The notes beneath the pieces were generated by a model that searched no databases, was not told the origin of the DNA, and saw nothing but the letters and a program-made list of their open reading frames with translations. From NCBI RefSeq assembly GCF_036365525.1, contig NW_027141646.1, forward strand, positions 558,001 to 622,000: a stretch of 64,000 bases of DNA. Reading direction: 5' to 3'. Made by a program: the position numbers and the translations under genes. This DNA comes from Heterodontus francisci (Eukaryota). Below are positions 1,457 through 35,158 of this stretch, in pieces (position 1 is the first letter of the stretch; the number at the start of each line of letters is the position of its first letter).

Positions 1457-1718
1457 GCAAACATTTGAAGGAACCAGAATGAAAGTCCTGACTCCTGGAC
1501 ACAAGGAAAAGAGCAGCCAGCTTGTTCCAACACACAGTTGATAGATACAGTATCACTCACAAAGCACAGTGACACAGCCAGCTCATCATTTCCACTGCAA
1601 CAAACAAAAGAAGTAGTCAGACCCACACTGATCCCAAGATCAAGAGACACATTTTCAATCCAACAGTCAAGCAGAACAGGAGAGATTGAAGTTGCTTCTA
1701 TTTCACTGCAGCTGACTG
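1457..1718 (+). other. Exon-like block of the repeated unknown transcription unit (copy E)
   Basis: Preceded by ctttttcttcctgcag and followed by gtagac; visibly homologous to 14461-14718, 29538-29794, 35159-35415 and 60861-61118. Confidence 0.45.
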
Positions 1719-1899
1719 GTAGACACATCAAACCCAGTCTAAAAACACACTCATTATCAGATTTAAATAAACTGTGTCAATTTGACTACATTTCAAATAA
1801 GATATCTTAACTAGAACAGGCAAAATTTACCTGATTGAAAGCTAGAAAATAAGTCCTAATATGTACCCCACAATATAAACTGAGCTACACATTACAAAC

Positions 1900-3360
1900 A
1901 AATCCAAACATTTCACTATGGGTCAGACAGAAACATACAGTATTCATTCTATTTTTTTACAATACAGAGAAATTTGACTGTACATACCAGGTCATGTATC
2001 AGATTGAAAGATTAACACTCACAATTAATTTGGCAGAGCGATGAATTGGCTACCAATTCGCAACTCATGTACAAGAATTGAATAAAACAGGCAGCTATGA
2101 AATAGTTAATCCATATTTTAAATTAAACACAAGGGACAAATATTGATACACAAAATTATGAAACAGTAGCCAACAGAATGCTTGAGGTACATATTAAGTA
2201 CAGGATACAGTAGGATCACACAGACACGTACAACACAGAGACACATAGATGCAAATTGAATCTGACACTGAAACAGGGTACCAGAGCTTATTGGATGGAG
2301 AATGAATCACATATACAGACACAGTACTCATAACTTACATATACTGAATGGGTCCAACATGCAGACACAGTACGGATGCTGGCTGATACAGAATTAATCT
2401 CACACTTGCACAATCCCCCAGAGGCAGAAACATAAGGAATGAATTGCAAACACACATTCTGTACTAGAGACTATCAAATTCAGAATGAACCTACATTGAC
2501 ACACAGGACCAGGGATTTAAAGATACAGAATGTGGCCCACAATCATGTCAAGTAAGAGAAGAGCTTAAGAACATAACAGATATGACCAAGTGTAGGCCAT
2601 TTGGCCTCTCCACCCTACCCTGCCATTTAATATGATCATGGCTGATCTGATTGTGCTTAACTTCACTTTCCTGGCTGTCCCAATAACCCTTTACTNNNNN
2701 NNNNNNNNNNNNNNNNNNNNNNNNNNNNNNNNNNNNNNNNNNNNNNNNNNNNNNNNNNNNNNNNNNNNNNNNNNNNNNNNNNNNNNNNNNNNNNNNNNNN
2801 NNNNNNNNNNNNNNNNNNNNNNNNNNNNNNNNNNNNNNNNNNNNNNNNNNNNNNNNNNNNNNNNNNNNNNNNNNNNNNNNNNNNNNNNNNNNNNNNNNAA
2901 CTATATAATGCATCCCACATTCACTTACATGACGTGAAACAGATGGACACAGTACAAATCTGATTCACATAGAGTAGGAGTGCCTAAAAAACACTGAGTC
3001 CACAATGCCATTCAATAATATTTCTTAACAGGTACAGAATGAATGCCACACTCACAAACTCTACCAGTCACAGAAAAACACAGAATAAGCAACACATTCA
3101 CAAACAATACCAGAGACACAGAGATATTGAATGAATCACATTCTCACTGTCAGTTGCGGAGACGGATGAAAAATGAATTAATCCACACTCACATTCAGTT
3201 TGAGAGACTGATGGATACAGAAGTATATTCACACTCACAGGCAGTACCAGAAACTGACATACACCACATTAATCCCACCTCATACAGAGTACCAGAGGCT
3301 GACATGATGAACTGGAACCAGACATAGTCACATAACAGAAAATAAATGTTACAGAATAAT
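1900..3360 (+). repeat. Highly degenerate 41-46-bp family tandem repeat, interrupted by a LINE tail (~2560-2695, minus) and a gap
   Basis: Recurring gatacagaat(g/t)aatc..acactcaca and cagtaccagagac words. Confidence 0.5.
2696..2898. other. Assembly gap (203 N)
   Basis: Run of N. Confidence 1.
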
Positions 3361-3390
3361 GTACTCATTTACATACGTTAAACTCACATA

Positions 3391-3462
3391 GTGATGTTGG
3401 TATAGTGCTGAGAATATCTGCTTTCCAAGCAGTTGACATGAGTTCCGTACTGCGGGTCAGAC
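3391..3462 (+). pseudogene. tRNA-Gly(TCC) pseudogene
   Basis: gtgatgttggtatagtgctgagaatatctgctttccaagcagttgacatgagttc aligns to vertebrate tRNA-Gly-TCC (GCGTTGGTGGTATAGTGGTGAGCATAGCTGCCTTCCAAGCAGTTGACCCGGGTTCG); T-arm and acceptor stem are destroyed. Confidence 0.7.
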
Positions 3463-4004
3463 CTCAATTCTGGTATCATGAAGCTTCATTTTATAACTTA
3501 AAAATGATCAATGTGATTTCCAAATTAAAACTTACAAAAGACTCTCATCATCCATGTGCATCTCCCACAATGCTGAACTTCAATTTTCTTTCAATGAAAT
3601 TTATGTTAAAGAAGACATGTCCTTTAAACTAATAAATGAGTTCACAGTCAGAAACAAGAGTGTGCAGATCTTTGTTAAATAACAATAAAAAGGGAGATAG
3701 GTAAAGTTCAGTTCACGAACGGTGCTCTGGGTAAAGATTGAACCCACACTCAGATAACAGAGAATGAAATAATATAAGGTAAACTCACACTCACAGACCA
3801 GGAACTGACGGGGACAGAGTACAAGCTAAACACAGACAAAATACAAAAAAAAGCAGTTTTAAAACTGAACAAGTCAATGCAATTTATAAAATGATTCTCA
3901 TCATCCATGTACGTCTCCCGGAAATTTATCTTCTTTTTTTTGAATAACTATAGATTTGAAATAGCCTTTAAACTGATCAGTTTTCAGTCTGAAACTAATA
4001 GTAA

Positions 4005-12259: not shown

Positions 12260-12640
12260 CCGAATGCAGCGCATGCGCGGTACAGCACCACCCCCACCAG
12301 TGATTGTGAATGAGCGAATGGACGCATGCGCGCTCCCCTCCGCCAGCAAATCTGTTCAACGCCATTTACTCAGTGAGCGGAAAGAGTTTGTTTTTAACAG
12401 AGGGAATGGATATATTACGGCCTCGGGGTAAGGCAGCAAACAGCAATCTGCTTCCAGCAGCACATTGCTTTAGGACCCTGTCCGCAGTCTGGATCAGAGA
12501 TCGCCATTGACTCCGGGGCAAGTTCAGGGGGCGTCGCGGGCTGTTTGTGAGAGGCAATGTGGAGGATGAACTGATACCGGAACATGGAGTGAGCGGAGGA
12601 ATGGAGAGGCCTTTCTCGGACTGTGTGTGAACTAGGTAAG
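12260..12640 (+). promoter_or_regulatory. CpG-rich promoter and first exon of the unknown repeated unit (copy A)
   Basis: Two GCGCATGCGC-type (NRF1) motifs, gcggaa ETS-like site, ATG 12406, donor cggg|gtaagg after 12427 and second donor ctag|gtaagt at ~12635. Confidence 0.6.
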
Positions 12641-12751
12641 TGAGACAGAACGTGAATAAGCTGCTGTAGAAAATCTTTGCTGTTTCTCGCCTCAGTTCTG
12701 TAATACATGTTCGTGGTTTAACTCCTGTTTCACGCTGTTTACTGTGAGTGT

Positions 12752-13672
12752 TGCGACAGGTTTGCGGCTGCCTGCAATGAATTTGGCCCGACCATCAGCC
12801 TCAAGAAAACAAACATCATGGGGCAGGATGTCAGAAATGCTCCATCCATCAATATTGGCGACCACGCTCTGGAAGTGGTTCAAGAGTTCACCTACCGAGG
12901 CTCAACTATCACCAGTAACCTGTCTCTAGATGCAGAAATCAACAAGCGCATGGGAAAGGCTTCCACTGCTATGTCCAGACTGGCCAAGAGAGTGTGGGAA
13001 AATGGCGCACTGACACGGAACACAAAAGTCCGAGTGTATCAGGCCTGTGTCCTCAGTACCTTGCTCTATGGCAGCGAGGCCTGGACAACGTATGTCAGCC
13101 AAGAGCGACGTCTCAATTCATTCCATCTTCGCTGCCTCCGGAGAATACTTGGCATCAGGTGGCAGGACCGTATCTCCAACACAGAAGTCCTCGAGGCAGC
13201 CAACATCCCCAGCTTGTACGGCGCTTGAGATGGCTTGGCCATGTGAGCCACATGGAAGATGGCAGGATCCCCAAATACACATTTTACAGCGAGCTCGCCA
13301 CTGGTATCAGACCCACCGGCCGTCTATGTCTCCGCTATAAAGACGTCTGCAAACGCGACATGAAATCCTGTGACATTGATCACAAATCGTGGGAGTCAGT
13401 TGCCAGCGTTCGCCAGAGCTGGCGGGCAGCCATAAAGACGGGGTAAAATGTGGTGAGTCGAAGAGACTTAGTAGTTGGCAGGAAAAAAGACAGAGGCGCA
13501 AGGGGAGAGCCAACTGTGCAACAGCCCGAGAAACAAATTTCTCTGCAGCACCTGTGGAAAAGCCTGTCACTCTAGAATTGGCCTTTATCGCCACTCCAGG
13601 CGCTGCTTCACAAACCACTGACCACCTCCAGGCGCGTATCCATTGTCTCTCGAGATAAGGAGGCCCAAAATA
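12752..13672 (+). mobile_element. 5'-truncated RTE-clade LINE
   Basis: ..TISLKKTNIMGQD..LEVVQEFTYRGS..DAEINKRMGKAS..TKVRVYQACVLSTLLYGSEAW..RLRWLGHV..; absent from the duplicate (empty site gagtgt|acagtg at ~60230). Confidence 0.9.
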
Positions 13673-13689
13673 TACAGTGAATAGTGGAA

Positions 13690-14000
13690 TCAAGATCTCG
13701 GGCGCACAGTTTCAGAATAAGGGATCTCCCATTTCTGACGGAGTGAAGGAGGAATTTCTTCTCTCAAAGCGTCATTATTCTTTGGAATTCTCTACCTCAG
13801 AGAGCAGTAGAGGCTGAGTTGTTAAATATATTAAAGGATGAGTTAAACGTTTGATCTCCATGGGAGTAATGTGTTCTGGGAGAAGGCAGGATAATGGAGC
13901 TGAATCCACGATCAGATCAGCCATAATCTTATTGAACTGTGGATCAGATTCGAGAGACTGAATGGCCTACTCCTGCTCCTACTTCTTAGGTTCTTATGTT
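13690..14000 (+). mobile_element. CR1-like LINE 3' end
   Basis: ggaggaatttcttctctca..tggaattctctacctcagagagcagt..aatggcctactcctgctcctacttctta. Confidence 0.75.
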
Positions 14001-14244
14001 ATAATGTCAGATTGAAATAGAAACCTGATCTGCACAAACATCCCTCAGGTAGTCCCAATCTTGGAGAAGTGCAGATGTTGGCTTGTTTCTGGATGTCACT
14101 AAATTGTTGTAAATCGGCAAAAACACCTGGTCAGCAGATGCTGAGATCTGCAGTGAAATCAGACACTGACATTCTTTGTATTTCTGGTGAGTATTTGTGG
14201 TTAGTAATAATGATTATTAATTGAAATGTTACATTTATCTCTTT

Positions 14245-14360
14245 AATAAAAGCAAAATACTGCCGGTGCTGGAAATGTGAAATAGAAACAAGAAATGTTG
14301 GAACCACTCAGCGGTCTGGCAGCATCTGCGGAAAGGAAGCAGAGTTAACATTCCGGGTCA
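14245..14360. mobile_element. Penelope-like repeat fragment flanked by a ~42-bp direct duplication
   Basis: taaaagcaaaatactgc..tgctggaaatgtgaaata..; gtaataatgattattaattgaaatgttacatt..atctcttt repeated at 14203 and 14361; single copy with no insert at ~60761. Confidence 0.6.
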
Positions 14361-14460
14361 GTAATAATGATTATTAATTGAAATGTTACATTAATCTCTT
14401 TTCTAGCTTCTACCTCAACTGATCTTCAGTTACAAGAGATATTGTTCTTCCTTTCTGCAG

Positions 14461-14718
14461 GCAAATACTTCAAGGGAACAGAATGAATGTGATGATTCCC
14501 AGGCACAAGGAAATGTACATTCAGCTCCATACAACACAGAGTAGGTTTGTTATCACTCCCAGAGGCCATCTGTTAATTCCAGAGTCACATGGAGCAGAAG
14601 TAGTCAAACTCTCACTGATCCCAAGTTCAGAGTCACATTTTCAATCCAGCAATCAAACAAAGCAGAAGAGAAAGACATTGTTTCCAATCCATTCCAATTC
14701 TGTACTGCTGAATGTTAG
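14461..14718 (+). other. Exon-like block of the repeated unknown unit (copy A)
   Basis: gttcttcctttctgcag acceptor and ttag|gtacat donor; homologous to four other blocks. Confidence 0.5.
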
Positions 14719-14844
14719 GTACATCAATCTCAATTCAAAAGCACACCCACTATCAGATTGAAAGACACTATATCAATCTCACAAGAGAGACACATCCTGG
14801 AGACAGTAAAATAGAGACTGAATCTCACCCTCACATACCTGAAA

Positions 14845-15330
14845 CTGTGTCCAGTTCTGGTCACCTCATTACAGTAAGGATATAATTGCACTAGAGAGGG
14901 TACTGAGGAAATTTCCGAGGATGTTGCCAGGACTGAAAAAATGCAGCTGTGAGGAAAGATTGGAAAGGCTGGGATAATTCTCTTTGGAACAGTGAAGGCT
15001 GAGGGAAGAGCTGATTGAAATGTACAGAATTTTGAGGGACCTGGACAGAGTGGAGGTGAAGGGTCTGAACAGAGAGGTCATTGACGAGGGCCATAGATTT
15101 AAAGTGATTGGTAGAAAAATTAGAGGGGCGATGAGGGAAAGAAAATCACCCAGAGGTTGTTGGGGGTCTGGAACTCACTGCCTGAAAGGATAGTTGAGGC
15201 AGGAACCCTCAACTGGTTCAAAAGTACTCTGAGTATGCACCTCAAGTGCCATAAGCTACAGGGTTCAGGACCAAATGAAGGTGGGATTAAGTGACCTCTT
15301 TCTGTGCCTTAAACTTTCTATGATTCTATG
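14845..15330 (+). mobile_element. CR1-like LINE 3' fragment
   Basis: VQFWSPHY..IIALERV.., tctggaactcactgcctgaaagg, tail tttctatgattctatga. Confidence 0.8.
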
Positions 15331-18300
15331 AAACTGATGATTTAAAAAAACATACCCATATACAGTAAACAGACAGACAGAGTAAAATTCACATTTACAA
15401 ATTATTAACGAGTTAAAGTAAAGATTAAAACCTCTAGCCACAGAAGGGAGACTGACAGCTCCAGAGAAGAAAATAAAACCACTCACATGCAAGAGACTGT
15501 CAGATCGAGAATAACACCAGAGTCACCTAACTGAAACTGCAGTTACCACGCAAGACACATGGACACATACCAGGGACTGAGAGGGACAAAGAAAAATCAA
15601 TTCTCCAATAAGAGAAATTGAATGAGAGGAATAACACACATACTTGTGTAGTAGACATTGATAGCTGCAGAAAAAAAGAAAATGTGCACACACACCTATC
15701 AGGAACTGTAAGCTGCAGATTAAAACACACAGACCAAAAATAGAAAGGTTCAGAGAAAAGCCCCATATCACACACTAGAGCTTGAAAGATACAGAATAAA
15801 CCCACAGTGTTATATCTTAACTTTACAGGTACAGCTTAAAAGTGACACATACCAGAAACCAACTGGTGCAAAGTAAAACTCACTCAAGTAACAGAAACTG
15901 AAAGGTAAAGATCAAAAAACAGAATCACATACAGAAAATGGCAGGTATAGAATAAAACAACAGTCACATATTGGAAGTTGGCAGGTGGGGGGGGGGGGTG
16001 GCGGAGGATCGGGGGGGGGAACACCTTCATGTTCCATAAACTGACAGTTACAGAGTAAAATAAACATTCATATACTATCAATGGACAGGTGCAGAATTAA
16101 CATCTCATTCACTTAACAGAAGCTAAAAGGTGCTGCAGAAAGCACATAATCAAATTCCAAAGATTGAAAGATACAGAATAAACCCACATTCACACACCAG
16201 AAACTGACAGGAACAGAACCCACATTCCATTCACAGAAACAGATAGGGACAGAACAAAGGCAACAATCACATCCCAGAAACTGACAGGAGCAGAACCCAC
16301 ATTCCATTCACAGAAACAGATAGGGACAGAACAAAGGCAACAATCACATACCAGAAACTGACAGGAGCAGAACCCATATTCCATTCACAGAAACGGATAG
16401 GGACACAACAAAGGCCACAATCACATACCAGAAACTGACAGGAACAGAACCCACATTCCTTTCACAGAAAGGGTCAGAACAAAGGGCGCAATCACATACC
16501 AGAAACTGACAGGGAAAGATAAAACACTTCACACATTTCAGAAAGTAACAGGTGCAGAATAACTGCCTCCCTCACATATGAGAAACTGACAGTGACAGAT
16601 TGATACCCATACTCGCATACTGGAAAATAACAGGTAAAGATTAAAATCTACATTTACATATCAGAAAATAGCAAATGCAGTATAAAAGCCACACTCAACT
16701 ACCAGAGAATGACAGACACAGAGTGAAATCCACAGTGAATGCCAAGAAATTTTCTGGAAGAGAGTGAAAATCTCTCATCCATAACTGACAGGTACAAAGA
16801 AAACCCAACACTTGCCCTTCACACACTGACAGATACAGAATAAAACAAAAATAATTAAGATGATTGATATACCAAATACTGACAGATACAGACTAAAACT
16901 CAAAGTCACTTTTATAAACTGACAGATACAGAATAAATTCAGCAGTCACAGACCAGAGAATTAAATGTACAAAGTAAACCTCACAGACACATGTCAGAAA
17001 CTGACATGTACAGATTAAAAATCACACTCACATTCTAGAGAATGTAGAGATGTGGTGTACAATCCACACTCAAAAGCCAGACTGAAACACGTACTTGTAT
17101 ACCAGAACATGACATATACAGGTTAAAAACCAGACCTGCACATTAGAAATTTAAATGCACAGGTTAAAACTTAAATTTACAAACCAGACAATCAAAGATA
17201 AAGAGTAAACAGCACTCATATACAAGTGAGTGTTAGATTAACAGTCAAACCCACATTCACATGCAATAAACTGAGGGGCACAAGTTCAAGACACACAAAC
17301 AAACATCAGAAACTGGAAGATACAGAATAAAACGTTTCTCACATAAAACAAAGTGACAGGTACAGATAAACCCACACTCAAAATCAGAAACTGACAGAGA
17401 TAAACTATAGACGAGGGATTAAGAGCTATCGAGTGAAACTTACACCCGTATCCAAGGAACTGAATAATACAGCAAAAGAAGTGAAAACAAACACTCACCC
17501 ACTAGAAAATATAACTGCACTAACATATAGAAACTGACAGGCATGAAGCAAACCCACTCACCCACAATACGGAAAAACACAACAGAGACTGAGAGACATG
17601 AAAGAAAAGCTACACACAAATACCAGAAAGTGACAATTACAGTTCCATACTGCAAAGTACAAAGGAAGCAAGGTAAAAAAACAACACTCACGATTCTGAG
17701 TTAGACTGATGTGGAGTAAAATCTAGATGCAAATACCAGAGTTTGACTGGTACAGCTATAAATCTGAATCACATAAGAAAGTGAGAGGTGCAGAGTAAGC
17801 CCCACAAACAGGGATCAGTATGTAACTGGTACAAAGTAAAATTCAAACCAACTTTTCAGAAACAGACAGGTAATGAGAAGAAAAAGACACAAACACAAAT
17901 ACCAGAGTATGAGGGTTACAGAGTAAAACCCATGCTTGTTTTTCAGGAATTGCCATGTACAGATTTAAAAACCTCTCATTCACATTAAAAACTTACAGAC
18001 ACAAAGGAAATCCCACACTCACACGTCAGAGACTGACAAATACTCAGAAAAAAACCTTAAAAACAGAGACTGACAGGAACAGGATTGAGCATACCATCAA
18101 GATAAACAAATGGCAGTTTCAGCATAAATCACAAATTCCCACTGCAGAGACTGACATGAACAGAGTTAAATGAACACCTATTGAGCAGAAATTAACAATC
18201 ATCCTTTAAATGTACAGTCACAGAATAGAAACTGTCAGGTCAAGGCCGAAGTAGATTCACGGAACAAATTGAAATATGGAATGTGAGCCTCATACTCAAA

Positions 18301-18874
18301 TACCAGAAGCTAATAGGTACACAGTAAAACTGATAATGACATACCAGACACACATAGACAGAGAAAAACAATATCACATCACAGAATCTGACAAGTAGAG
18401 AATAAAATGTATAGTAGCATATCAGAGATTGACAGGAAAAGCCCTACCATAAAGCAACAGGTACAGAATAATGGCCACACTGACAAGTGTGATTTTGATA
18501 GGTACAGGGGAAACGTTACACTCACCAGAGACATGCAGAGACAGAATAAAACCCACATAGACATAAAGAAACTCAGAGGTACATAGCAAAATCCACATTC
18601 AGATGCCAGAAACAGACAGGGAAAGTAAAACATATACTCACAAATCATGCACAGACAAATACAGAGTAATAGCAGCATTCACATTACAGAGACTGACAGA
18701 TGCAGGTTAAAATCCACAATCAATTACCACAAACAAAAAGGTACAGAATAAAACAGATATTTGCATTGCAGTAAATGACAACACGCTGGGTAAAATCCAC
18801 ATTCACACATCAGAAATGAAAGGGTGAAGAGTGATCCCACATTCACTCGCCAGAATAAAGAAGGTACAGTGTAA

Positions 18875-19085
18875 ATGAAAACAGAAAATGCTGGAAATAC
18901 TCTGCAAGTCTGGCAGCACCTGTGGAGAGAGGGAGACTGTTCACATTTCAGATCAATGATGAAAGGCCATTGACCTGAAAGGTGAACTCTGTTTCTGTCT
19001 CCACAGATGTTGGCAGGCCTGCTGAGTGTTTACAGCATTTTCTGTTTTTAAATTCCAGCATTCACAGTATTTTCCTTTGTATTAT
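18875..19085. mobile_element. Penelope-like repeat in head-to-head arrangement with a degenerate hammerhead motif
   Basis: aaaacagaaaatgctggaaatactc.. and its reverse complement flank tgatgaaaggccattgacctgaaa. Confidence 0.55.
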
Positions 19086-19654
19086 GTGCAATGTAAAGAG
19101 CTTTCTGCTATTCCAGAAATTGACAAGGACAAAACAATACTCATTCACATATAACAGATCGTGAGAGATTCAAACCAAAACCACTGTTCACATCAGCAGA
19201 AACTGACAGGTACATGACAAAACCAGCACATACATACCAGAAGCTGATAGATACATAATAAAACCCACACTCACATCAGAAGTTGGCAGGTAGATTGAAG
19301 CACGTGCTCATACATCGGATACTGACAGAAAAGAGTTAAAATCACACTCACATCAGAAGTAGACAGGTACAGTGGAAAACCCACATCTGTTTATCAGTAA
19401 TTGACAGATACAGAGAAAAACCCACAGTCACATTCCACATTCTGAGATAAAGAATAAATCCTTCACTATCATACCATACAAAGAGGGACAGATATTTGGA
19501 CAGATCTAGATGTGTAAGAGTTCCTTCATTGTTCCATAAATATAAACAAACAGATCCTGTCTTTCAGAGAGACAGATGGAGAATGACTTCCACACTCATA
19601 AAGTACCAGTGATGAACAGATACAGAACAAATGTTATTCATATACACACCTTTA

Positions 19655-20290
19655 TGATTATTTGAAGTGTATGTTTATGGGATGTGAGCATCTGTAGAAA
19701 GGAGAGTAATTGTTGTCCATCTCTCATTGCCCTTTAGAAGATGGTGTCGAGTGGCCTTCTTGCTCCCTCCAGTCTTTGTATTGTAGGTACACCCAAAGTG
19801 GTGTTAGGTAGGGAGTTGCAGAATTTGGACTGAATGATGATGCAGGAATGGTGTTATATTTTCAAGCCAGGATGACATATGAACTGGAGATGAACTTGCA
19901 GGTGGTAATGTTTTCATACATTTGCTGCCCATGTTCTACTTGGTAGCAGATGTCGGGGGTTTGGAAGGTGCTGTTTCATGGTGCTTCCTCAGGTTGATGC
20001 AGTATATCTTGTAGATGGTACACACTGTGCACTGGTGGTGGAGGGAGTAAATGATTAATCTGGTGAATGGTAAACCAATCAAGCCTGCTGCTTTGTCCTG
20101 GATGGTATAGAGTTTCTTGAGTGCTGTTTGGGGTGCACACATCCAGGCAACTGGGGAGTAATCCATCAGACTTCTGACTTGTGGCTTGTAGGTGATGGAA
20201 AGTCTTTAAGGAGTTAGGACATGAGTTACTAACCACAGAATATCCGGCTTCTGACCAGCTTTTGAAGCCATAGTGGTAATATGGCAAGAA
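19655..20290 (-). mobile_element. Degenerate LINE 3' fragment (L2/CR1 group)
   Basis: MDYSPVAWM..LYTIQDKAAGLIG..SLHHQCTV..IYKI on the minus strand. Confidence 0.7.
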
Positions 20291-22223
20291 AAGAATAAAT
20301 CCTGCAGTCATTTCCCGTAAAGTAACATGCACAGAATAATGGACATATGAAACAAGATAGTGACAGGCCTAGGACACAAGTCACAATCACTGATCATAGG
20401 CTTGTGGATACAGAATAAAACCCACAATCACATACCAGTAACTGAGAGATACATAGTAAAATCCACATTCATATGTCAGGAACAGAAAGGGAAAGTTAAA
20501 TACTTGCTGACAAATCTGACACAGACAGACACAGAGTAATAGCAACATTCACATTCCAGAGACTGACAGATATAGAGTAAAAGCTCCGATCAATTCCAAG
20601 ACACAAACAGGTACAGAATAAAATACATACTTGCTTTGTAGTAACTGACAGATACAGAATAAAATCCACATTCACATATCAGAAACTGACAGGTGAAGAG
20701 TAAAAGACACAGTAACATGTCACAAACTGACAGATAGAGGGTGATCTCACATTCACTTGCCAGAATATAAAAGGTAAAGAATTAAAATCTTTCTTCCAGA
20801 CCAGAAACGGACTGCACAGAATAAAGGAGCGACTTACATTGCAGTAACTGACCAGAACAGAGGAAAATCCATATTCACATGTCAGAAACTGACAGGAACA
20901 GAAAGAACACACACACACATCCCAGAAATTGGCACACAGAATAAAATTCACATGCCCATCTCAGATAATAACTTTACAGATGAAAATCCAGAATCATACA
21001 GCAGAGAGTGAGATGTTCAACTAAACCCAGCTTCTGACACGTGAGGCTAACACACACAGAGCAAAAACAATGCTCATGTCACATACCAGAAACAGGCAGA
21101 TGCAGATCACAACCCACACTCACATATCAGATACTGGCAGTTACAGTGTAAAATAACTCTTAATGATCAATGACTCGGATGCGATTCCGTCCACATTCAT
21201 TCATCAGAAACTTACAGATACAAATAATAAACAGTACTGACATAAAACAGATTGACAGGAACAGGTTAAAACCCACCCTCATATATAGATGTTTGATAGG
21301 TACAGAATATAGTCGAGGCCTCCAAACCAGAGACTGACATGTCGAGTGAAAACCAGACTCACCTGTCATCAATTAACATGTGCAGTGTAAAGCTACACAA
21401 ACATATTACTGACTAACATGTACAGAGGGAAAATCAAACAACCTTCCAGATCAGAAACTGACAGGCACAGATTAAACTCCAAATTCACATATCGGACACT
21501 AACAAAGAGAAAGGCCCAGAAACCCATTAGCACAGCTTCAATAATTAATAAGTACATTATTTAGAAACCCCGTTGGTGCAGGAACCCTCAGTCTCAATCT
21601 TTAACACCACACACTGAAAATCTACACTCCGCTTTTGTCTCCCACGAATCGGGACCAATTTATAATGTGTGATGTGTTTTTTTTAACATTGATCTGAAAT
21701 GTATCCGGTTACAGAATGCTGTGAATGAGGCTTTTTGCCTGCCGGTTACAGACTGTTTCAAAACAGGACAGAAAATGAAGCTGAATAGATGCTGGATTGG
21801 AAAAGCGAATCTGGAACTTGTGAGAAAATGTGAAATAATACAATATGGGGGATATTTTTACATCCCTGTCGTAAGGCTATATGATCTAATAACTTGATAT
21901 GCAGTGAAGCCGCTTCTTGTTTTAGAATTCTGTTGGCGGGCTTTTCAAATTTGAAAAAGAAACGGTTTGGAGTCTGCGAATCCGGCGCGGTTATTTTCTG
22001 CCTTATTAACGTGATGTCTCTGGATTGGTGAACTAAGCAACTATCTGATTGGTAACATGAACAACACAATGAGAAGCTGCACAGAGTGACCAATCACCAG
22101 TGTCCTCACTATCATTCATCCAGAAGGGATAAGTGGGTGGATTTGATCATTCTTCCTCAACTGTTTTGTAATGTAATTTTTATAGATTTTTGTGAATAAA
22201 GTATATTTTTGGGGGCAAAAATA

Positions 22224-24128: not shown

Positions 24129-26814
24129 AGGATCCTTGCTAAATGTGAAAGACACAGGAAGCATCTGAAAAGTGTATAGATTGAACCAATTAGGATACTC
24201 GGAACAATTCAGAACTTAATATGGTAAAAGAAAGGGTGATGGGGATGTCATTGATACACTTAGCAAGGGGCGAACAGAACATTGTTGGCACACTGAGAAG
24301 GAGAAGATAGACTATGGTCAACACAGCAAGAGAAGAAGAAGGAGGGAAGTCCATGTCCCAGCAAGCTCAGAATCAAGAACCAGTACTGAGTGTTACTGTA
24401 TACTTATTGCTGTTGTTAAGGATTAACTTTGTAGATCTTAGTTAAGCCCAATAAACTTTCTGACTTGAACACAGAACTTGACTCTGTACCTCGTAGGTCC
24501 ATCTTGGTCAAGAATCTCAAGGTGAGACAGGTTGGGTATTCTCTGTCTCACCTCTTTTCAGGTAACATCTACCTGAAACTTACAGCTCTTTACTATTTAC
24601 ATACATTGCTATGTATTTTGTCCTCCTCAAACTTCCAAATTATGGTCCCTTGAAAGCAATGTTGTTAATAAAGGTTTCTGTGTCAGCCGACTGCATACTT
24701 CTTCACATTAAAAAGACATCAGTTCGCTACTACACTCTGTCTCCTATCCTTTAGCCAACTACCATCTCAGCATACCAGTATCAATTTTTAACATGAACTT
24801 CTATTTTCTGTGTAACTCTGTTATGTACTACTTGATCGAATGCCTTTCAAAAAGCAGATATCCAACATCTATAGTACTACCTTCAGCAAAGTCAACCCCA
24901 AGAATTCAATCAGGTTAGTCGCACATGATTTGTCCTTAGCAAATCGGTACTGCTTGTCCCTTATTAACTCATCATTCTACAAGTTGAAGTTCATTTGATC
25001 CTTGAAACTTGTTTGCAATTGTTTTCGACCACTGATGATAAAATTAATTGGTCTGTAGTCACCAGCATTTTCCTTCCCGTTTCTAGAACAGGACTGTAAC
25101 ATTTGCACTGTTTCAGGCAACTGGATCTACTTCAATATCCAAACATTATCGTCAGGAATTCTGTTATCTGCATCAGTAATCTGAGATGCTTTCTATCTGG
25201 ACTCATTAACGTGAAGTGATCCCAATCTATTGAGAACCTCCTTTCTGTCTATTTTCATTCTATCCAATATCTCTGTACCCCTCCTCTACCGGGACATTAA
25301 CTTCATCCTTGCTTTTGTGAACAGACATATAACGCTCTCATTACCTTTTCCAACACAAGGAGATGTCCTTTCTTTATCCCTAAATGGTCCGCAATTTCTT
25401 GCACCATCATTTTGTATTTTTGTATATTTATCAATGATTTTTGTTTCTCTCTGTTGTTACTCATTAATATTTTCTTATAATCTCTTGCAAACATTGTTCT
25501 TTTTTTACCTGCACTTTCACTATTCTGCCTGGAAGGAATTATGGTGATGTCGAGGATATGGGATATTTGTACAAATCACTGCCATTATTATTGAAGTGAT
25601 TGGCGCTGCAAACAATCTTTGAGTCATATTCATCAAAAGCAAATTATTGGTAACGTGTGGCGCTGAGACTGGAAGGTTGTCTGAAAAAGGCAGGGGAGCG
25701 GGTGCAGGGGCGGCTCCTCATTTGGCCAAAACACTCTGGTCGAAGTGCAAGAGTGAGTCCGAGTATTTCCAGGATGAAGAATAAATATCTGTTTAATATC
25801 ATGCGGAGTGAAACTCTTGGTCACGGAAATGATACCTGTAAGGCCTTGTGCTGTCAATCTGCCGTGTGTATGGGAGGGAAGGATGGAGTGGAAGAGCCTC
25901 TGTATTTCCCCAGTACTGAATTGCAGTGGGTTGGATGTTTTATCAGTCTCTAACTCTGCCTGTTGGGTGAGTAGGCGACAGAAACGATACCAGTTCCCAT
26001 CCCTGTGTGACTGTCACTCCTTCTGTTGTGTGTGTGCAGGATTAAACCCTGAGTCCCTCGATCCAGCTCTGGCTGCTATATCTGGAAAGATGCTGAATCT
26101 TTCAGTAGTTGATCTGCTCAAACCGAGCTCAAGGCCTGAGTGGTGAACAGAATTTCACATTAATTGTGTGAATAATACTATGATTGAACAGCAGGTTATG
26201 ATCGACTGGACCAAAGGCTGGAAAAATTCCTGTCCATAAATCTTTCAACAGGGAGTTCGAGGATCTCCTGACTCCGAGCGTTTCAGGGATAAAGGAGTAG
26301 AAATCGGCAACTGAGCCCTGAAAATTCACAGCAAAGACTGTGTACATGAGGATATTTAACAACCGGGAGCTGAAACTCTGGGACGGGCTCTATTTTCACT
26401 GTGTTTGTGTGTCCGGTATAATCGCGGCAGCTCCGTGTCTCTCTTGTTTAGAATGAAACGATGAAGATCCGCCATTCGGTATTACACACATTGATCGCGG
26501 GTTTTACTCCGGTTAAACAAACCTTTGCTGACTGAAATGAATTCTACAAGGTCCCAGCAAACACACCTACTTCCTCCTTCCTCCCATGTTTCTGTCGGAT
26601 TGTTTTGAGAGGAGGGCCTCAATAATAACAAACAGCCTGCAGGGGGAGACGGCAATTTGAACATCTAAATGGGATCAGCTCCCGGCTTTCTAGGTTATAG
26701 ATTCCCTCCACCCCTCCCCACCCACCCTCCACCCTAACCCCATGTTCAGTTTCACTGTTCACACATTAATGAGGGTGAAATGGGGAAAGTTCCCATTTAT
26801 TTTCGTTGCAGAGA

Positions 26815-27100
26815 GCTGCGCACGCGCTGTATAGCCCCGCCCACTGGAGACGTCATCATGAGGAGAAGAGCGCATGCGCTCCCCTTCCCCGAACACTGCC
26901 TCTGAGCGTCATTCAGTGAGTGAGCGGAAGATTGTTTCAATCAGCTGCGAATGGAGACATCCGGGTCCCGGGGTAAGTGAACAAACAACATCTGCTTCCA
27001 GCAGCAACACCAGGTTTGGGAGCGAGTCTGCAGATGTGTTCAGAGATTAACATTGAATAGCGGGGAAGTTCAACGGGAGTCGGGGACTGTGTTGAATGAA
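26815..27100 (+). promoter_or_regulatory. CpG-rich promoter and first exon of the unknown repeated unit (copy B)
   Basis: GC box ccccgccc, gacgtca, gcgcatgcgc, gcggaag, ATG 26951, donor cggg|gtaagt after 26972; homologous to 12260-12550. Confidence 0.65.
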
Positions 27101-27103
27101 CAG

Positions 27104-27760
27104 TAGAGGCCTGGATACCCGAGTCCAACCCGAGCGGGACCCGAGCACATGTGTCCGCCTCGGCTCGGGCCCAGCTTGTGGCTCCGGCTTTCGGGCTCGG
27201 GTCCAGTTCGGGTTCGGGTCGGACACACTCGGTCAGTCTCTGCTGGTCTGTATTGAAATAAAAAAAAACTGACCGGAGCTGGGAGTCCGGGTCGGAATTG
27301 AGTCTGCGCAGTGAGCCGGTGCCGTTACTGTCATCACGCATGCGCTGCAGATTTTAGCAGGTTGGGGGTCAAGAAGAGTTGGGTCGGGTCCGCTGATGTT
27401 CGGTCGGGTTGTTGGTGTGTGTGTGGACTCAAGTCCTAACAGTGAACAGTTTAATTTTTTTATATAAATACTGCATATTTTATAATCAATTTATGATAAT
27501 TATTCATTCAGGACCTTCCTGTTCTCTGCATTTCATCTGCTCACTGGATAAACTTGCAGCAAGTATTTCAACCCGTAAAGCATGAGTTTACATAATGTAT
27601 AATGATATTTACTGAGACTTCGGTCAATCGCTGTGTTTAGTTTAAGCAATACAGATCCTGGTAAAGTGTGGAAACAACTCCATGGGTTTCTATTTAACTC
27701 GTGACCAAACAATCACTGACATTGTGCTCCAATCTTCATCTTTTAAACAATCTTTCAACC
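27104..27760 (+). mobile_element. hAT-type terminus / truncated non-autonomous element
   Basis: Begins TAGAGGCCTGG with dense CGGGTC/CCCGA subterminal words; starts where homology to copy A ends; second terminus missing. Confidence 0.55.
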
Positions 27761-28076
27761 AGCTGAAACAGATTGTTTATCTGACATTGCCACAAAAACT
27801 TACAAAGATGTCAAAAGATAGATGGACACTCTGAAAGCTTTGGAGGTTTGAGATTCATCCATGACATCAAATAATCTAGGCTAAGAATATTTTTCTTTAA
27901 AAAAAGTGAAAGGTAACTTCATGCAAAATTGTATTAAATGTCAATGCTGGAAATTGTTCAACATGCTTTGTCAATGTTAACATATATGATTTGTTTTGCT
28001 TTGTCGGCTATTCGAGGTGCTGGCTATTATGTGTTTGCTGATCAACCAGAAGTCTTCAATCAAACAGTAATGTAGA

Positions 28077-28630
28077 TCTGCAGTACTGTAGACTAATGAT
28101 CAGACAGCACTGGGAATATGCAGTACTGTAGACTAATGATCAGACAGCACCGGGAATCTGCAGTACTGTAGACTAATGATCAGACAGCACCGGGAATCTG
28201 CAGTACTGTAGGCTAATGATCAGACAGCACCGGGAATGTGCAGTACTGTAGACTAATGATCAGACAGCACCGGGAATGTGCAGTGCTGTAGACTAATGAT
28301 CAGACAGCACCGGGAATCTGCAGTACTGTAGACTAATGATCAGACAGCACCGGGAATCTGCAGTACTGTAGACTAATGATCAGACAGCACCGGGAATCTG
28401 CAGTACTGTAGACTAATGATCAGACAGCACCGGGAATCTGCAGTACTGTAGACTAATGATCAGACAGCACAGGGAATCTGCAGGATTGTAGACTAATGAT
28501 CAGACAGCACCGGGAATCTGCAGTACTGTAGACCAATGATCAGACAGCACCGGGAATCTGCAGTACTGTCGACTAATGATCAGACAGCACCGGGAATCTG
28601 CAGTACTGTACATTAACAATCAAACAGCAC
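28077..28630 (+). repeat. 40-bp minisatellite (~13.5 units)
   Basis: cagtactgtagactaatgatcagacagcaccgggaatctg in tandem with no spacers. Confidence 0.98.
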
Positions 28631-28689
28631 AGCGAAAGCCTGCTATCTGATCTGTCATTTTTCCAACCAATCAATCTTTCCTTTCACTG

Positions 28690-29365
28690 AACGTAACTTG
28701 CAGGTACAGCATGCAATTAACAAGGTAAATGGTATGTTGGCCTTCATTGCAAGAGGATGAGTATAGGAGTCAAGATGTCTTGCTGCAATGAAATAGAGCC
28801 TTGTTGAGACTGTACCTGGAGTATTGTGTGCAGTTTTGGTCTCTTGCCTAGAAAAAGATATACTTGTCATAGACGGAGTGCAATGAAGGTTCACCAAACT
28901 AATTCCAGGGATGAAGGGATTGCCTTATGAGGAAAGATTAAACGGACCGGGCCTTTATTCTCTGGAGTTTAGAAGAATGAGAGGTGATCTCATTCAAACA
29001 TACAAAATTCTTACAGGGCTCAACAGTGTAGATGCAGGAAGGATGTTTCCCCGGACTGGGGATCTCGAACCAGGGGACACAGTCTCAGAATAAGGAGCAG
29101 GCCATTTAGGACTGAGATGAGGAGGAATTTCTTCACTCAGAGGCTGGTGAATCTTTGGAATTCTCTACCCCAGAGGGCTGTGGATGCTCAGTCATTGAGT
29201 ATGTTCAGGATGGAGAGCGATACATTTCTATATACTAAAAACATCAAGGGTTACAGGGATAGCGCAGGAAAATGGTGTTGAGGTAGATCAACCACGATCT
29301 CATTGAATGGTGGAGAGGCCTCAAAGGGCTGAATGAGCTACTCCTGCTCCTAGTTCTTCTGTTAA
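28690..29365 (+). mobile_element. CR1-like LINE 3' fragment
   Basis: MKGLPYEERL..LYSLEFRRMRGDLIQTYKIL plus 3' tail. Confidence 0.88.
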
Positions 29366-29537
29366 TGTGTTGTAGTCAGGTTAAGGGGGAACAAAACTGT
29401 GCTGCTGCACTGCAGTGCTGTCCAACACTGACACTTTGTTTCACCGGGTTCCCACTGTGGAAATGACAATGATGAAACTGTAAAGTTCTAACCCTCACCA
29501 GTTCTTGTCTTGCAAGGAATACTTCTCCTTTGTGCAG

Positions 29538-29794
29538 GAACCGGAATAGATGTGATGTTTCCCAGGACCAAGGAACAGTGCAGCCCAGATCCTTCTAACA
29601 CACAGTAGGTACGTGATCATTCCCATAGTGTAAAGGTACAGACAGCTCACCAGTTCCACTGTCAGGGACACCAGAAGGAGTCAGTCTCAAACTGATCCCA
29701 AGATCCAGACACACATTTTCAATCCCAACAAGGTAAATAGAGCAGGAGAGACAGACATTGTATCCAGTTCAAACCAATTCAGTAATGCTGACAG
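29538..29794 (+). other. Exon-like block of the repeated unknown unit (copy B)
   Basis: cttctcctttgtgcag acceptor and acag|gtagag donor; shares ctgatcccaagatc..acacattttcaatcc with the other copies. Confidence 0.45.
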
Positions 29795-29829
29795 GTAGAG
29801 ACATGAATCCCAGGTCAACTCTCAGATCT

Positions 29830-30722
29830 AAATAGAGTCATATACAGCAGAGGAGGCTATTCGGCTAATTGACTCCATGTTTACTCTCCACAAAGCAATA
29901 CAGTCAGTCCCACTCCCTGTCTCGATCCCCGTGGCCCTGCAAGTCTATTTCTCTCAGGTGACCATCCAACATCCTACTGAAGTCAGTGATTGTCTCCATT
30001 TCCACCTCCCTTGTGGGCAGTGAGTTCCAGGTCATTACCACCCTCTGTGTAAAACAGTTTTTCCTCATATTCTCCCTGAATCTCTGGTCAAAAACATTCA
30101 ATCTGTGTAAACTAGTCCTTGTACCAATTGTTAATGGGAACAATTTTTCCCTTTCCAGCGTGCCTGTTAAAATCCTGAACACTTCAGTTAAATCTCCCCT
30201 CAATCTCCTTTGTTATGAGGAGAAAAAGCCCAGCTTTTCCAACCTAACCTTGTAACTGAAATCCTCCATCCGTGAAACCATTCTGGTAAATCTCCTCTGC
30301 ACCCTCTCAAGGACCCTCCCATCCATGCTGAGGTATGGTGACCAGAACTGGACCAGAGCTTTGTAAAGGTTCAGCATAACTTCGCTGCCTTTGTCCTCAA
30401 TGCCACTGTTTATAAAGCCCAAGATCCCATATGTTTTACTAACCACTCTCTCAATACCTCCTGCCACCTGCAATGATCTATGCACTTGCACCCTCAGGCC
30501 CCTCTATTCCTGCAAAATCTTTAGAACTGGGCCAATAATTATATATTGCCTCTCCCTATTCCTTCTGCCAAAATGCATCATCTCACACTTGTCAGTATTA
30601 AATTCCATCTGCCACCTCTCTGCCCATTCTCCTAGCCTGTCTATGTGCTGTTGCAGGCGGTTCATATCATCCTCTCTGTTTGCCTCACCTCCATGTTTGG
30701 TGTTGCCATCAAATTTTGAAAT
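29830..30722 (-). mobile_element. CR1-like LINE 3' fragment
   Basis: YGILGFIN..EVMLNLYKALV..LERVQRRFTRMV..RGDLTEVFRIL. Confidence 0.88.
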
Positions 30723-31379
30723 AGACTCTGTGCACGCTGAGTTATAAATTAAATATTAGACAGATCTGACACACTGGACTCGATTGAAAGGTGTTGAATT
30801 CATACCAGGTAGATGCTCCAGGAAACAAATTAAAATGTCTCCCACTTAACCTACAGTATGAGTTTAAACAATATTCATCCCAATAGTGTAACCTTACACC
30901 CAGCTTAGATGCAAGTCCAAAATTCTGTGCAGTATCAGATTGAGTGATGCTGTAAAATAGTGAAACCCCGAGGGACAACTTTGATCACAGTTCAGCATTC
31001 ATCCACATTATGCAGCTGCAAGATGCAGTGTCAATTGTTTTCGGCCCAGAGCTACAAATTACATCCCATTTCAAACTGAAAGATACAGTGTCAATTCCAT
31101 CACTGTAGATTGAGCTCCAGGATACAAGCCAGTCTGAAAACCTCATGCACTATCATTAGTGCTGTAAAGGTTGGGGTAAAATTATGTATCACTGATGTGT
31201 TTACAGTGAGACTGAGTCAATGGTAGTTATAACACTCTCATATTCGTTAAATAAAATCTACAGAATCAAACCCAGTGTTGTCATCATTTAAATTAAATGT
31301 GACGTAAATACCTACTGAGGTATTAATGTTAAATATATTATTTGAGAGACCAGAGGTGAGATGCAAATGAAATACATCT

Positions 31380-32640
31380 GACAAATGAACAGCAGATGCA
31401 CAAACATACAAGAGACTGACAGATACAGACTAAATCTCACACTCTCCTCCAGTACCACAAACAGAGTGAATCACATGCTTACACACTGTAGCAGGGAATG
31501 TCAGACCCCTCAAACAGTACCACAGACTGATAGGTACAGACAGAATGCCACACACATACACTACTGACATAGACAAACTGAACCACACATTCACATACAG
31601 TGCCAGAGACTGAAAAATACAGAATTAATCCCACTTATACACAGTACCAGAGTCTGACAGAGAATGAATTTCTCTCTCTCTCACACAGAAAACACACACA
31701 CATTCAGATGCAGTAACGGAGACTTACAGATAAAAAAGATAGTGCACACTGACAATAAACTATATAGACTGACAAATACTGAATGAATCCCATATTCACA
31801 AACAATACCAGACATTGAGAAATACAGAATTAAACTCGAACTGATAGACTGCAACAGAGAATGACACAAACAGCATTAATCACTCACTCGTACTTTAGCA
31901 CAAACTGACATAGACAGAAAGAACCTAACACACACAAACAGTACCAGTGACTGAGAGATACAGAATGAACCCCACATTCACAGACAGTAGCAGAGACAGA
32001 TAGGGAAAGTATCCAACACTCTCATAGAGTAATGAACACGGAGAATGAATCCAAAACACACACACACTTTCCCATGGACAGACAGATACAGGTAGAATTC
32101 GACACGCACAGTAGCAGAGACTGATATAAATATAAAATACATCCCATGCTCACATACTGCAACAGAGACTGACAGTAACAATATTAATCCCACACATGAA
32201 AAAATAGCAGAGACTGACAGATGCAGGTAAAATACAAAAACACACACAGTACCAGACAGTGTGTGATACAGAATTAATCTCTCATTCATATTGAATCAGA
32301 GTGTCAGAGGCAGAATGAATCTCACACGAATAAACTGCACCAGGGACTGAGAGATCCAGAATCAATTTCTCTCACACAAAGATACAATAGCAGAGAAAGT
32401 CAGATACAGAATGAATCCGGATTCCCATAGAGTGGCAGATACAGACTGAAACACTCACTAACATACTATAGCAGAGCAGAGTGAATACAGAATAAATTCC
32501 ACACACACGGACAACAGAGAGAGAGACAGAAAGATCCAGAACTAATTTAACACTTACACAGTAACAGATTATGACAGCGAGAGACTTAGACCCAAACAAC
32601 ATACTGTACGAGAGAGTGACAGCTAGAGAATTAATCCCAC
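31380..32640 (+). repeat. Degenerate 46-bp family array
   Basis: acagtaccagagactgacagatacagaatgaatcccacac-like monomers. Confidence 0.75.
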
Positions 32641-33602
32641 ACTCAAACAAAGTAACAGACACTGACAGATACAGAATTATTCCCACACTCACACACAGTA
32701 AAATACACTGACAGATACTGAACTAATCCCACACTCACACACAGTAACAGACACTGACAGATACAGAATTAATCACATCATCACACACAGTAACAGATAC
32801 TGACCGATACAGAATTAATCCCACACTCAAACACAGTGACAGATACTGACAGATACAGAATTAATCACATCATCGCACACAGTAACAGACACTGACAGAT
32901 ACTGAACTAATCCCACACTCACACACAGTAACAGACACTGACAGATACTGAATTAATCCCACACTCACACACAGTAACAGATACTGGCAGATACAGAATT
33001 AATCCCACACTCATACACAGGAACAGACACTGACAGATACTGAACTAATCCCACACTCACACACAGTAACAGACACTGACAGATACTGAATTAATCCCAC
33101 ACTCACACATAGTAACAGACAATCACAGATACTGAATTAATCCCACACTCACACACAGTAACAGACACTGACAGATACAGAATTAATCCCACACTCACAC
33201 ACAGTAACAGATACTGACCAATAAAGAATTAATACCACATTCAAACGCAGTAACAGACACTGATTGAAACAAAATTAATCCCACACTCACACACAGTAAG
33301 ACACTGACAAATACTGAATTAATCCCACACTCACACACAGTAACAGACACTGACAGATAAAGAATTAATCCCACACTCACACACAGTAACAGACACTGAC
33401 AGATACAGAATTAATCACACACTCACACACAGTAAGACACTGACAGATACCGAATTAATCCCACACTCACACACAGTAACAATCAGTGACAGATACAGAA
33501 TTAATCCACTCTCACACACAGTAACAGACACTGACAGATACAGAATTAATCCCACACTCTCACACAGTAACAGACACTGAAAGTAACAGAATTAATCCCG
33601 CA
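32640..33602 (+). repeat. Homogeneous 46-bp minisatellite (~21 units)
   Basis: agtaacagacactgacagatactgaattaatcccacactcacacac with period 46 (32881 to 32927). Confidence 0.97.
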
Positions 33603-34199
33603 CAATATATTTGCTTGACATTTAATTTAAATGATGGCAACACAGTGTTTGATGCTGTTGGTTTTATTTAACTATTATGAGAGTCTTTTGAACTACTATT
33701 GTCTCAGTCTCCCTATAATCACGAGAGAGAGACATACTATTAGTCCAAGCTTTACAGCACTCATGATAGTGCATGAGGTTTTTAGACTGGCTTGTATTCT
33801 GGAACTCAATGTACAGTGATGGAATTGACATAGTATCTTTCAGTTTGAAATGGGATGTAATGTGTAGCTCTGGGCTGAAAACAATTGACACTGCATCTTG
33901 CAGCTGTATAATGTGGATGAATGCTGAACTGTGATCAAAGTTGTCCCTCGGGGTTTCTTTATTTTACAGCATCACTCAATCTGATACTGCACAGAATTTT
34001 GGACTTGCATCTAAGCTGGGTGTGAGGTTACACTATTGGGATGAATATTGTTTAAACTCATACTGTAGGTTAAGTGGGTGACATTTTAATTTGTGTCCTG
34101 GAGCATCTAGCTGGTATGAATCCAACACCTTTCAATCGAGTACAGTGTGTCAGATCTATCTAATATTTAATTTGTAGCTCAGCCTGCACAGAGTCTATT

Positions 34200-35110: not shown

Positions 35111-35158
35111 TCTGATTCTGTTGAAATCTGAGAGTTGACCTGGGATTCATGTATCTAC

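What the first reader, a model, noticed from the sequence alone, without database searches (positions are those of the whole stretch)
12260..21510. Unannotated repeated transcription-unit-like module: NRF1/ETS CpG promoter, micro first exon, ~260-bp exon, long 41-46-bp repeat array
Seen in the sequence: five homologous CpG promoters (12260+, 26815+, 42070-, 59740+, 63435-) in two clearly diverged subfamilies. All keep GCATGCGC, GCGGAA, a G+4 ATG and a GTAAG donor 22 nt after the A of ATG (21 in the last copy), giving MDILRPR-G or METSGSR-G. Downstream on the same strand is a homologous ~260-bp block (1457, 14461, 29538, 35415-, 60861) that starts right after a polypyrimidine+YAG acceptor and ends at a GT. 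In copies E, A and B it is followed by kilobases of 41-46-bp repeats. Splicing exon 1 to exon 2 gives only a short peptide (MDILRPRGKYFKGTE* in copy A), and no long ORF follows. Inference: either a multi-copy repeat-rich lncRNA or micropeptide gene family interleaved with histone genes, or the orphaned 5' ends of a gene family (for example zinc-finger genes) whose coding exon is not in this window. Retention of promoter motifs, ATG spacing and splice sites across diverged copies suggests past selection.
Basis: partly seen in the sequence, partly recalled or inferred. Interest (0 to 1): 0.72.

Follow-up and report, generated by a model that had tools for sequence, protein, structure and literature searches.

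The report
Noncoding RNA genes among shark histones
Hundreds of copies of a repeat-filled gene with no long reading frame lie among the histone genes of this shark-like genome, at least one subfamily makes a spliced RNA, and many copies end just in front of a histone gene, so their transcription likely helps tune histone output, though they could be mere passengers.

Summary
The module is real and far larger than the window shows: at least 386 copies in about eight old subfamilies (66-84% alike), found almost only in histone clusters.

Two retro-captured junction pieces elsewhere in the genome show germline transcription and splicing. They use a second donor (12636), so exon 1 is about 250 nt, not a micro-exon. 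Contigs of two probable RNA studies cover exon 1, exon 2 and the whole array but not the upstream DNA.

No conserved micropeptide, no zinc-finger link, no conserved RNA fold. Exon 2 is no more conserved than intact intron.

In 27 of 27 cases where a histone gene comes next it is on the same strand, and one array type ends about 330 nt before H2B. These trace to only about three independent junctions.

Best reading: a multicopy lncRNA family acting in cis by transcribing toward histone promoters (inferred, 0.4). Passenger 0.3, scaffold RNA 0.2. No earlier scan note or paper found on it.

The parts
12260..12390 (+). Copy A promoter: CpG island, two NRF1-like palindromes (12269, 12324), GTGAGCGGAA ETS-like site (12377); start site probably near 12380-12390 (inferred)
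   Evidence: RNA-contig depth 0 and 0.93 in bin 11900-12226 against 72 and 32 in bin 12227-12553
12390..12635 (+). Copy A exon 1 (about 250 nt). Donor 1 GT at 12428 has no support as the used donor; donor 2 GT at 12636 is the one in processed copies
   Evidence: X2 contig 12391-12629 reads across donor 1
12636..14460 (+). Copy A intron with RTE-like LINE piece (12751-13673), CR1-like 3' end (13686-14013) and a short insertion with duplicated flank (14239-14362); transposon class names recalled
14461..14760 (+).
15340..21504 (+). Degenerate 41-bp AC-rich repeat array with LINE/SINE inserts; covered by RNA contigs along its length; longest stop-free frame under 90 codons
22224..22494 (+). Same-strand H2A pseudogene (start codon lost, truncated) about 720 nt after the array end
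1457..3828 (+). Copy E last exon and array; its promoter lies about 2.1-2.6 kb upstream of the window start and has AAG in place of the ATG; followed by an H2B promoter/3'-end remnant and H2A (6071, +)
26781..33603 (+). Copy B: promoter, exon 1 interrupted by a hAT-like miniature element from about 27102, 40-bp satellite and CR1 in the intron, exon-2 head at 29538, 46-bp array 31404-33603; converges on copy C
35098..42115 (-). Copy C: promoter, exon 1 with hAT-like miniature element, donor 2 GT at 40912, a third donor further on, broken hAT transposase 38751-40577 in the intron, exon-2 head from 35415; no array of its own
59697..61220 (+). Copy D (A subfamily): promoter, exon 1 to 60114, intron, exon-2 head from 60861; cut off by a 40-bp satellite at 61307-62182
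63007..63467 (-). Copy F (B subfamily): promoter and exon 1 only; no exon-2 block before it meets copy D
47237..47867 (+). Isolated, homogenised block of the 41-bp repeat without promoter or exon-2 head

Best explanation
This is a family of at least 386 repeat-rich genes without a long reading frame, embedded in histone clusters and spliced in at least subfamily A, whose transcription toward the next histone promoter likely tunes that histone gene in cis. Shown: copy number, anatomy, spliced junction in two retro-captured pieces, same-strand position before histone genes. Probable: RNA cover of exons and array (the runs are guessed to be RNA). Inferred: a CpG-island promoter fires, exon 1 splices to the acceptor, and polymerase runs through several kb of repeats up to or into the H2B, H4 or H2A promoter, damping it (SRG1/LUTI-like) or keeping it open. 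The act of transcription would matter more than the RNA sequence. The units spread with the histone genes by segmental duplication, not by their own transposition (inferred from retained introns and shared flanks).
For: 386 exact core matches, control 0. Eight exon-2 subfamilies, 66-84% alike among the seven full-length ones compared. Every longer stretch fetched around intact units holds histone genes. Processed piece on C26 (33 nt of exon 1 joined to 438 nt of exon 2, then a CR1 3' end) and a 31-nt junction piece before a SINE, 14 copies on C49. Contigs of X1 and X2 (two studies) cover exon 1, exon 2 and all array bins, not the upstream bin, although upstream DNA is shared by 29 of 30 promoter loci examined. 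Promoter CpG o/e 0.44-0.9 in the seven clusters scored against 0.16-0.18 in exon 2 and arrays. An acceptor AG at or one base from the same place in 8 of 8 subfamilies. At least one upstream donor in seven of eight, read by eye. Of 65 exon-2 blocks in 864 kb, 27 have a histone gene as next non-array feature, and all 27 are same-strand. The beta-type array ends about 330 nt before the H2B ATG, next to its CCAAT boxes. Weak sequence constraint fits a transcription-act mechanism. Cover continues past the array end at 21579 and 21609.
Against: The 27 cases trace to about three independent junctions (array/H2B promoter, array/H4, array/H2A spacer), so orientation alone gives p of about 1/8. The other 38 blocks lead to another unit or run off the fetched stretch, and B, C and delta copies face each other. 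The H2A after copy A is a pseudogene, and 5 of the 9 H4 neighbours are 5'-truncated fragments. Subfamily beta, which abuts intact H2B, has lost donors 1 and 2, and its expression is untested. No strand, start or end information: contigs only, and the RNA label is a guess. Array 0.138 against transposon inserts 0.159 derived alleles per site (p=0.07), exon-2 head 0.125 (p=0.17). Exon 0.78 against intact intron 0.75 (p=0.24). LINE pieces inside units are sense-biased, 61 against 22 (not independent), the opposite of what purifying selection on a transcript usually leaves (established knowledge).
Confidence: 0.4

Rival explanations
1. Transcribed passenger: an old promoter plus minisatellite that is carried along by histone-cluster duplication, stays unmethylated and active because of its neighbourhood, and does nothing.
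For: No significant constraint on exon 2 or arrays. Many truncated or interrupted copies. Donors lost in beta. Sense-biased LINE inserts. The same repeat expands into pure satellite of 37 kb or more on C45.
Against: Promoter motifs, CpG islands and an acceptor persist across subfamilies 16-34% diverged. CTGACAG cores took 7 changes against 17.3 expected (p=0.004, one of 10 motifs tried). Exon exceeds intron when subfamilies with partly replaced introns are included (p=0.002 and 0.011).
Confidence: 0.3
2. Architectural RNA acting in trans or locally: the unstructured CA-rich array is a multivalent platform for RNA-binding proteins and helps build the histone locus body or a germ-cell granule, like Xlsirt or hsr-omega.
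For: The array is in RNA at depths like the exons. It is AC-rich on the sense strand with about 40% A, and not clearly structured (z=-1.5). Tandem CAC pairs, the RBPMS element (PMC4114688, passages), exceed shuffles in most arrays. There is a hint of constraint on CTGACAG. Germline expression is implied by the retro-captured pieces.
Against: CAC sites are not slower than other array sites (59 against 61.5 expected), and the CAC-pair excess is modest in A-type arrays (38 against 31). Array length varies from none to 8 kb. There are no localisation data.
Confidence: 0.2
3. 5' ends of coding genes (zinc-finger or other) or a micropeptide family.
For: A G+4 ATG is present in five promoter clusters. 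Copy D has an 85-codon open frame from the acceptor. The genome has many zinc-finger genes.
Against: No zinc-finger motif in 264 kb, and only one unrelated three-finger piece in a further 200 kb. No homology upstream of 20 zinc-finger exons. No protein match. ATG, frame and donor are not conserved. The processed copy runs on unspliced past the proposed exon end.
Confidence: 0.05
4. Non-autonomous mobile element, or a piRNA trap locus.
For: High copy number. Some C-type promoter copies lie next to hAT sequence with no histone gene within 5 kb (7 of the 11 promoter-centred 10-kb stretches). Divergent pairs share one promoter.
Against: Introns are retained, upstream homology fades gradually 0.3-1.2 kb out with no terminal repeat seen, and flanks are co-duplicated for kilobases. 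Transposon inserts are mostly sense, not antisense as a trap would need.
Confidence: 0.05

Closest known systems
SRG1 and other upstream interfering lncRNAs; LUTI isoforms (PMC4111732, passages read; PMC5655139 and PMC6469420, start of abstract in listing only)
   Same: Noncoding or poorly translated transcript from a distal promoter, on the same strand, running toward a coding gene's promoter.
   Different: Those are single-copy and functionally tested. This is a several-hundred-copy family with kilobases of repeats before histone genes, and neither read-through nor repression is shown.
Xlsirt, hsr-omega and similar repeat-rich lncRNAs (named in a table of PMC4111732, and a reference title in PMC4114688; their anatomy is recalled)
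   Same: Family or array of short tandem repeats with a unique head, noncoding, germline-linked.
   Different: No sequence relation tested or claimed. Here each copy has its own CpG promoter and intron and sits in histone clusters. Localisation unknown.
Transcribed satellite DNA on newt lampbrush loops (PMC5615363, passages read; that satellite 1 lies between histone clusters is recalled)
   Same: Tandem repeats next to histone genes that are transcribed; the repeat here also forms pure satellite blocks.
   Different: Newt satellite RNA is described as read-through from upstream gene promoters. Here the array has a dedicated promoter and spliced first exon and lies upstream of the histone gene.
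LINE-RNA chimeric retro-insertions (PMC13174262, start of abstract in listing only)
   Same: The C26 and C49 pieces look like template-switch chimeras of this RNA with a LINE and a SINE.
   Different: These are by-products used here as evidence of splicing, not the family itself; no target duplication was evident.

Membership tests
Spliced Pol II long noncoding RNA gene | Transcribed, longer than 200 nt | tested here: met
   Retro-captured spliced pieces; contig cover of exons and array but not upstream DNA in two studies, RNA label guessed. Subfamily A only.
Spliced Pol II long noncoding RNA gene | Intron removed at GT-AG sites | tested here: met
   Junction of donor 12636 to acceptor 14460 present in 15 genomic places from two events. 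Not shown for other subfamilies (searches found none).
Spliced Pol II long noncoding RNA gene | No conserved coding frame | tested here: met
   ribosome data not available.
SRG1/LUTI-type interfering transcript | Same-strand distal promoter upstream of the target gene | tested here: met
   27 of 27 (of 65 blocks); about three independent junctions.
SRG1/LUTI-type interfering transcript | Transcription runs through the downstream promoter | tested here: inconclusive
   Cover at 21579 and 21609, past the array end; nothing for an intact histone gene.
SRG1/LUTI-type interfering transcript | Downstream gene changes when upstream transcription is blocked | not testable with these tools
   Needs perturbation.
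Architectural repeat lncRNA (Xlsirt/hsr-omega type) | Repeat array retained in the RNA | tested here: inconclusive
   Array covered by contigs; mature and nascent RNA cannot be told apart.
Architectural repeat lncRNA (Xlsirt/hsr-omega type) | Localises to a body and binds specific proteins | not testable with these tools
   Needs FISH and pull-down.
C2H2 zinc-finger gene 5' end | Homology to zinc-finger gene promoters/first exons or a finger exon downstream | tested here: not met
Known structured ncRNA (snRNA, snoRNA, tRNA, miRNA host) | Rfam/tRNA match or covarying fold | tested here: not met
   Only histone stem-loops in Rfam; no tRNA; 0 of 24 predicted pairs with compensatory change.
Non-autonomous transposon | Defined termini, terminal repeats or target duplications | tested here: not met
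   Gradual homology edges and co-duplicated flanks; no dedicated empty-site search was made.

The most novel reading that the evidence does not exclude
Sharks control their histone genes with a dedicated, co-amplified layer of hundreds of upstream lncRNA genes. Each is read from a housekeeping-type promoter through a repeat array into the histone promoter, in some copies ending at the histone stem-loop as a long untranslated histone isoform, while the repeat RNA gathers proteins at the locus. This would be a vertebrate, family-scale LUTI system for replication-dependent histones.
Probability: 0.2. Interest if true: 0.85.

Novelty: new variant of a known kind. Interest (0 to 1): 0.55.

Why it matters
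Replication-dependent histone genes are normally intronless units with compact promoters and are not known to carry their own lncRNA partners (own knowledge; four literature searches found no such description). A family of hundreds of spliced repeat RNAs built into the histone repeat unit gives a concrete test of whether upstream noncoding transcription or a local repeat RNA regulates histone loci in a vertebrate. Even as a passenger, it shows a satellite with its own promoter evolving by birth and death alongside histone genes, and it will confuse annotation of shark histone clusters.

Tried and rejected
Zinc-finger 5' ends: rejected. The idea that the repeat is half a zinc-finger unit also failed: best E=2 in 30 finger exons.

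Micropeptide: rejected. The 85-codon exon-2 frame gave 14 candidates and none at E<=0.1 among longer proteins only, which is weak evidence, and no Pfam family.

Structured RNA or snoRNA: no Rfam match, no covariation, array fold z=-1.5.

Retro-junction searches for donor 1 of A and of B gave 0. A generic search gave 7 hits: the C26 copy, two ordinary units with a changed acceptor base, and four with no further homology. Absence is weak evidence.

The splice junction was not among the 15 joints shown of 147, where transposon joints filled the table. Runs X9 and X11 (other organisms) had depth in only 9 and 8 of 30 bins, nearly all holding transposon pieces, at 85% likeness; this shows nothing about absence.

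Metagenome contigs: 0 matches. Earlier scan notes: none by sequence.

I first read the sequence upstream of the gamma subfamily as a new antisense exon. One search shows it is ordinary intron of the family, with a third donor.

The first within-family rate estimate (12 copies) was discarded because three copies with deletions were misaligned; one search uses 9 copies.

Expression of subfamilies other than A and read-through into an intact histone gene remain untested.
Full report
Setting. The window is G000:C1600:558001-622000 of a 6.0-Gb genome. It is a histone cluster with H2A, H3, H4 and H1 genes and four Rfam histone stem-loops.

Observation. The five promoters align over about 300 nt and the five downstream blocks over about 280 nt. 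Tandem arrays of period 41 and 46 follow copies A and B, and a more decayed one follows E. Copy E's promoter lies just upstream of the window.

Scale. First-look candidates were 1525, 2199 and 2079 for three exon-2 queries and 1070 for promoter A, with only 40 scored each. A 34-35-nt exon-2 core pattern has 386 exact matches, control 0, with listed places on C21, C26, C28, C35 and C45 (100 of 386 listed). A B-type exon-1 pattern has 119. In 864 kb fetched around chosen hits, 64 exon-2 blocks fall into eight subfamilies, 66-84% alike among the seven full-length ones compared. Promoters fall into nine clusters, two of them partial or decayed singletons. Ten of the eleven stretches hold histone genes; the exception is C26, a processed copy. 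Of 11 promoter-centred 10-kb stretches picked for looking isolated, 7 had no histone gene, so the link is strong but not absolute.

Splicing and transcription. On C26, 33 nt from the end of a longer exon 1 are joined exactly to the acceptor, followed by 438 nt of exon 2 at 94% and then a CR1-like 3' end. On C49, a 31-nt piece (10 nt of exon 1, 21 nt of exon 2) precedes a SINE in 14 duplicated places. These look like two template-switch captures of the spliced RNA, which implies germline transcription (inference); no target duplication was evident. Both use the second donor (12636).

RNA contigs. Runs X1 and X2 come from two studies, and the tool only guesses that they are RNA. Their depth is 0 and 0.93 in the bin upstream of the promoter, 72 and 32 over exon 1, 165 and 125 over the exon-2 head, and 7-522 in array bins without large transposon inserts. 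The upstream DNA is shared by 29 of 30 promoter loci, so DNA reads should have covered it. One X2 contig spans 12391-12629 with 9 letters left over, which fits an end at the fork at donor 2 (inference; the letters were not shown). Thirty of 39 listed read differences equal the paralog in the flank, so the signal comes from the subfamily, not this copy. The junction itself was not among the joints shown.

Not coding. Two E-type promoters have AAG for the ATG. Spacing and donor 1 vary or are lost across clusters. The longest stop-free sense frame in 38 arrays is 159 codons, and 77-86 in copy A. The zinc-finger tests were negative.

Selection. CpG o/e is 0.44-0.9 at the promoters scored and 0.16-0.18 in exon 2 and arrays, which points to long-term germline hypomethylation (established knowledge). 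An acceptor AG is kept in 8 of 8 subfamilies, which alone is not unlikely at this divergence. Three successive donors exist and every subfamily but beta keeps at least one (by eye). Exon-2 head against intron: 0.78 against 0.75 in five subfamilies with intact introns (p=0.24), and 0.78 against 0.68-0.71 when partly replaced introns are included (p=0.002, 0.011). Among 9 A-type copies, arrays (593/4300) and exon-2 head (36/288) are not significantly slower than transposon inserts (187/1174). Only the CTGACAG core is slower (7 against 17.3, p=0.004, one of ten motifs). There is no covarying fold. So the promoter and splice signals look maintained and the RNA body barely so.

Position. Of 65 exon-2 blocks, 27 have a histone gene as the next non-array feature, and all 27 are on the same strand (9 H4, 13 H2B, 5 H2A). 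The beta-type array ends about 330 nt before the H2B start, adjacent to its promoter boxes. Copy E is followed by an H2B remnant and then H2A. These reduce to about three independent junctions, and several neighbours are broken, so the pattern is suggestive only.

Mechanism. I commit to action in cis by transcription toward the histone promoter (0.4), because maintained initiation and splicing signals, a loosely constrained body and a tandem position fit that best. Passenger (0.3) and scaffold RNA (0.2) remain close. That it is a lncRNA gene family I put at about 0.85.

Literature. Searches returned nothing describing such units. The passages shown (12 of 28 places) of the elasmobranch genome preprint 10.1101/2025.06.08.657570 mention histone clusters with tRNA loci only; its supplements were not seen and could bear on this. 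PMC12046345 (passages) added nothing specific. The library lacks most subscription papers, and database annotations of shark genomes could already list these loci as unnamed ncRNAs.

Verdict. Real, undescribed as far as searched, anatomy corrected, function unproven. New variant of a known kind; interest 0.55.

Noticed in passing
G000:C45 about 17,268,000-17,310,000 (L231-L235); window 47237-47867; flank 120673-129204 relative to window: The unit's repeat also forms homogeneous satellite: at least 37 kb on C45, 8.5 kb of the 46-bp form in the flank, and small solo blocks.
   Followed up: partly
window 37489-40577 (-) and about 92 kb immediately upstream of the window: A hAT transposase (Hermes DNA-binding and hAT dimerisation domains, split by a stop) sits in copy C's intron in sense with its promoter. 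The 29-bp repeat beside it has expanded to about 90 kb just upstream of the window.
   Followed up: partly
L180, L178-L177 region, L218, L242-L243, L207 (C28, C35, C21): In five alpha-type copies the array is fused directly to the last third of H4, so a transcript would run into an H4 3' end.
   Followed up: no
window about 4990-5150: An H2B-like promoter joined directly to a histone-like 3' end with no coding part between, suggesting a clean deletion of H2B.
   Followed up: no
window 28076-28630, 36300-36540, 61307-62182: A separate 40-bp satellite, about 95% homogeneous, inserted in three units.
   Followed up: no
L192-L205 (C49, 0.5-5.5 Mb): A duplicated block with CTCF-like motifs (motif recalled), a short tandem repeat and the SINE carrying the junction piece, in at least 14 copies.
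   Followed up: no
units across 864 kb: LINE fragments inside units are mostly in the sense orientation (61 against 22, copies not independent).
   Followed up: partly
L175:4250-5950; L236:2150-3900: Head-to-head pairs in which a unit lacking its own promoter and first exon lies about 500 nt from another unit's promoter, which may drive both.
   Followed up: partly
C35, C28, C21 clusters: H2B and H2A are arranged in tandem here rather than divergently, and these clusters showed only H2A, H2B and H4 in the stretches fetched.
   Followed up: no
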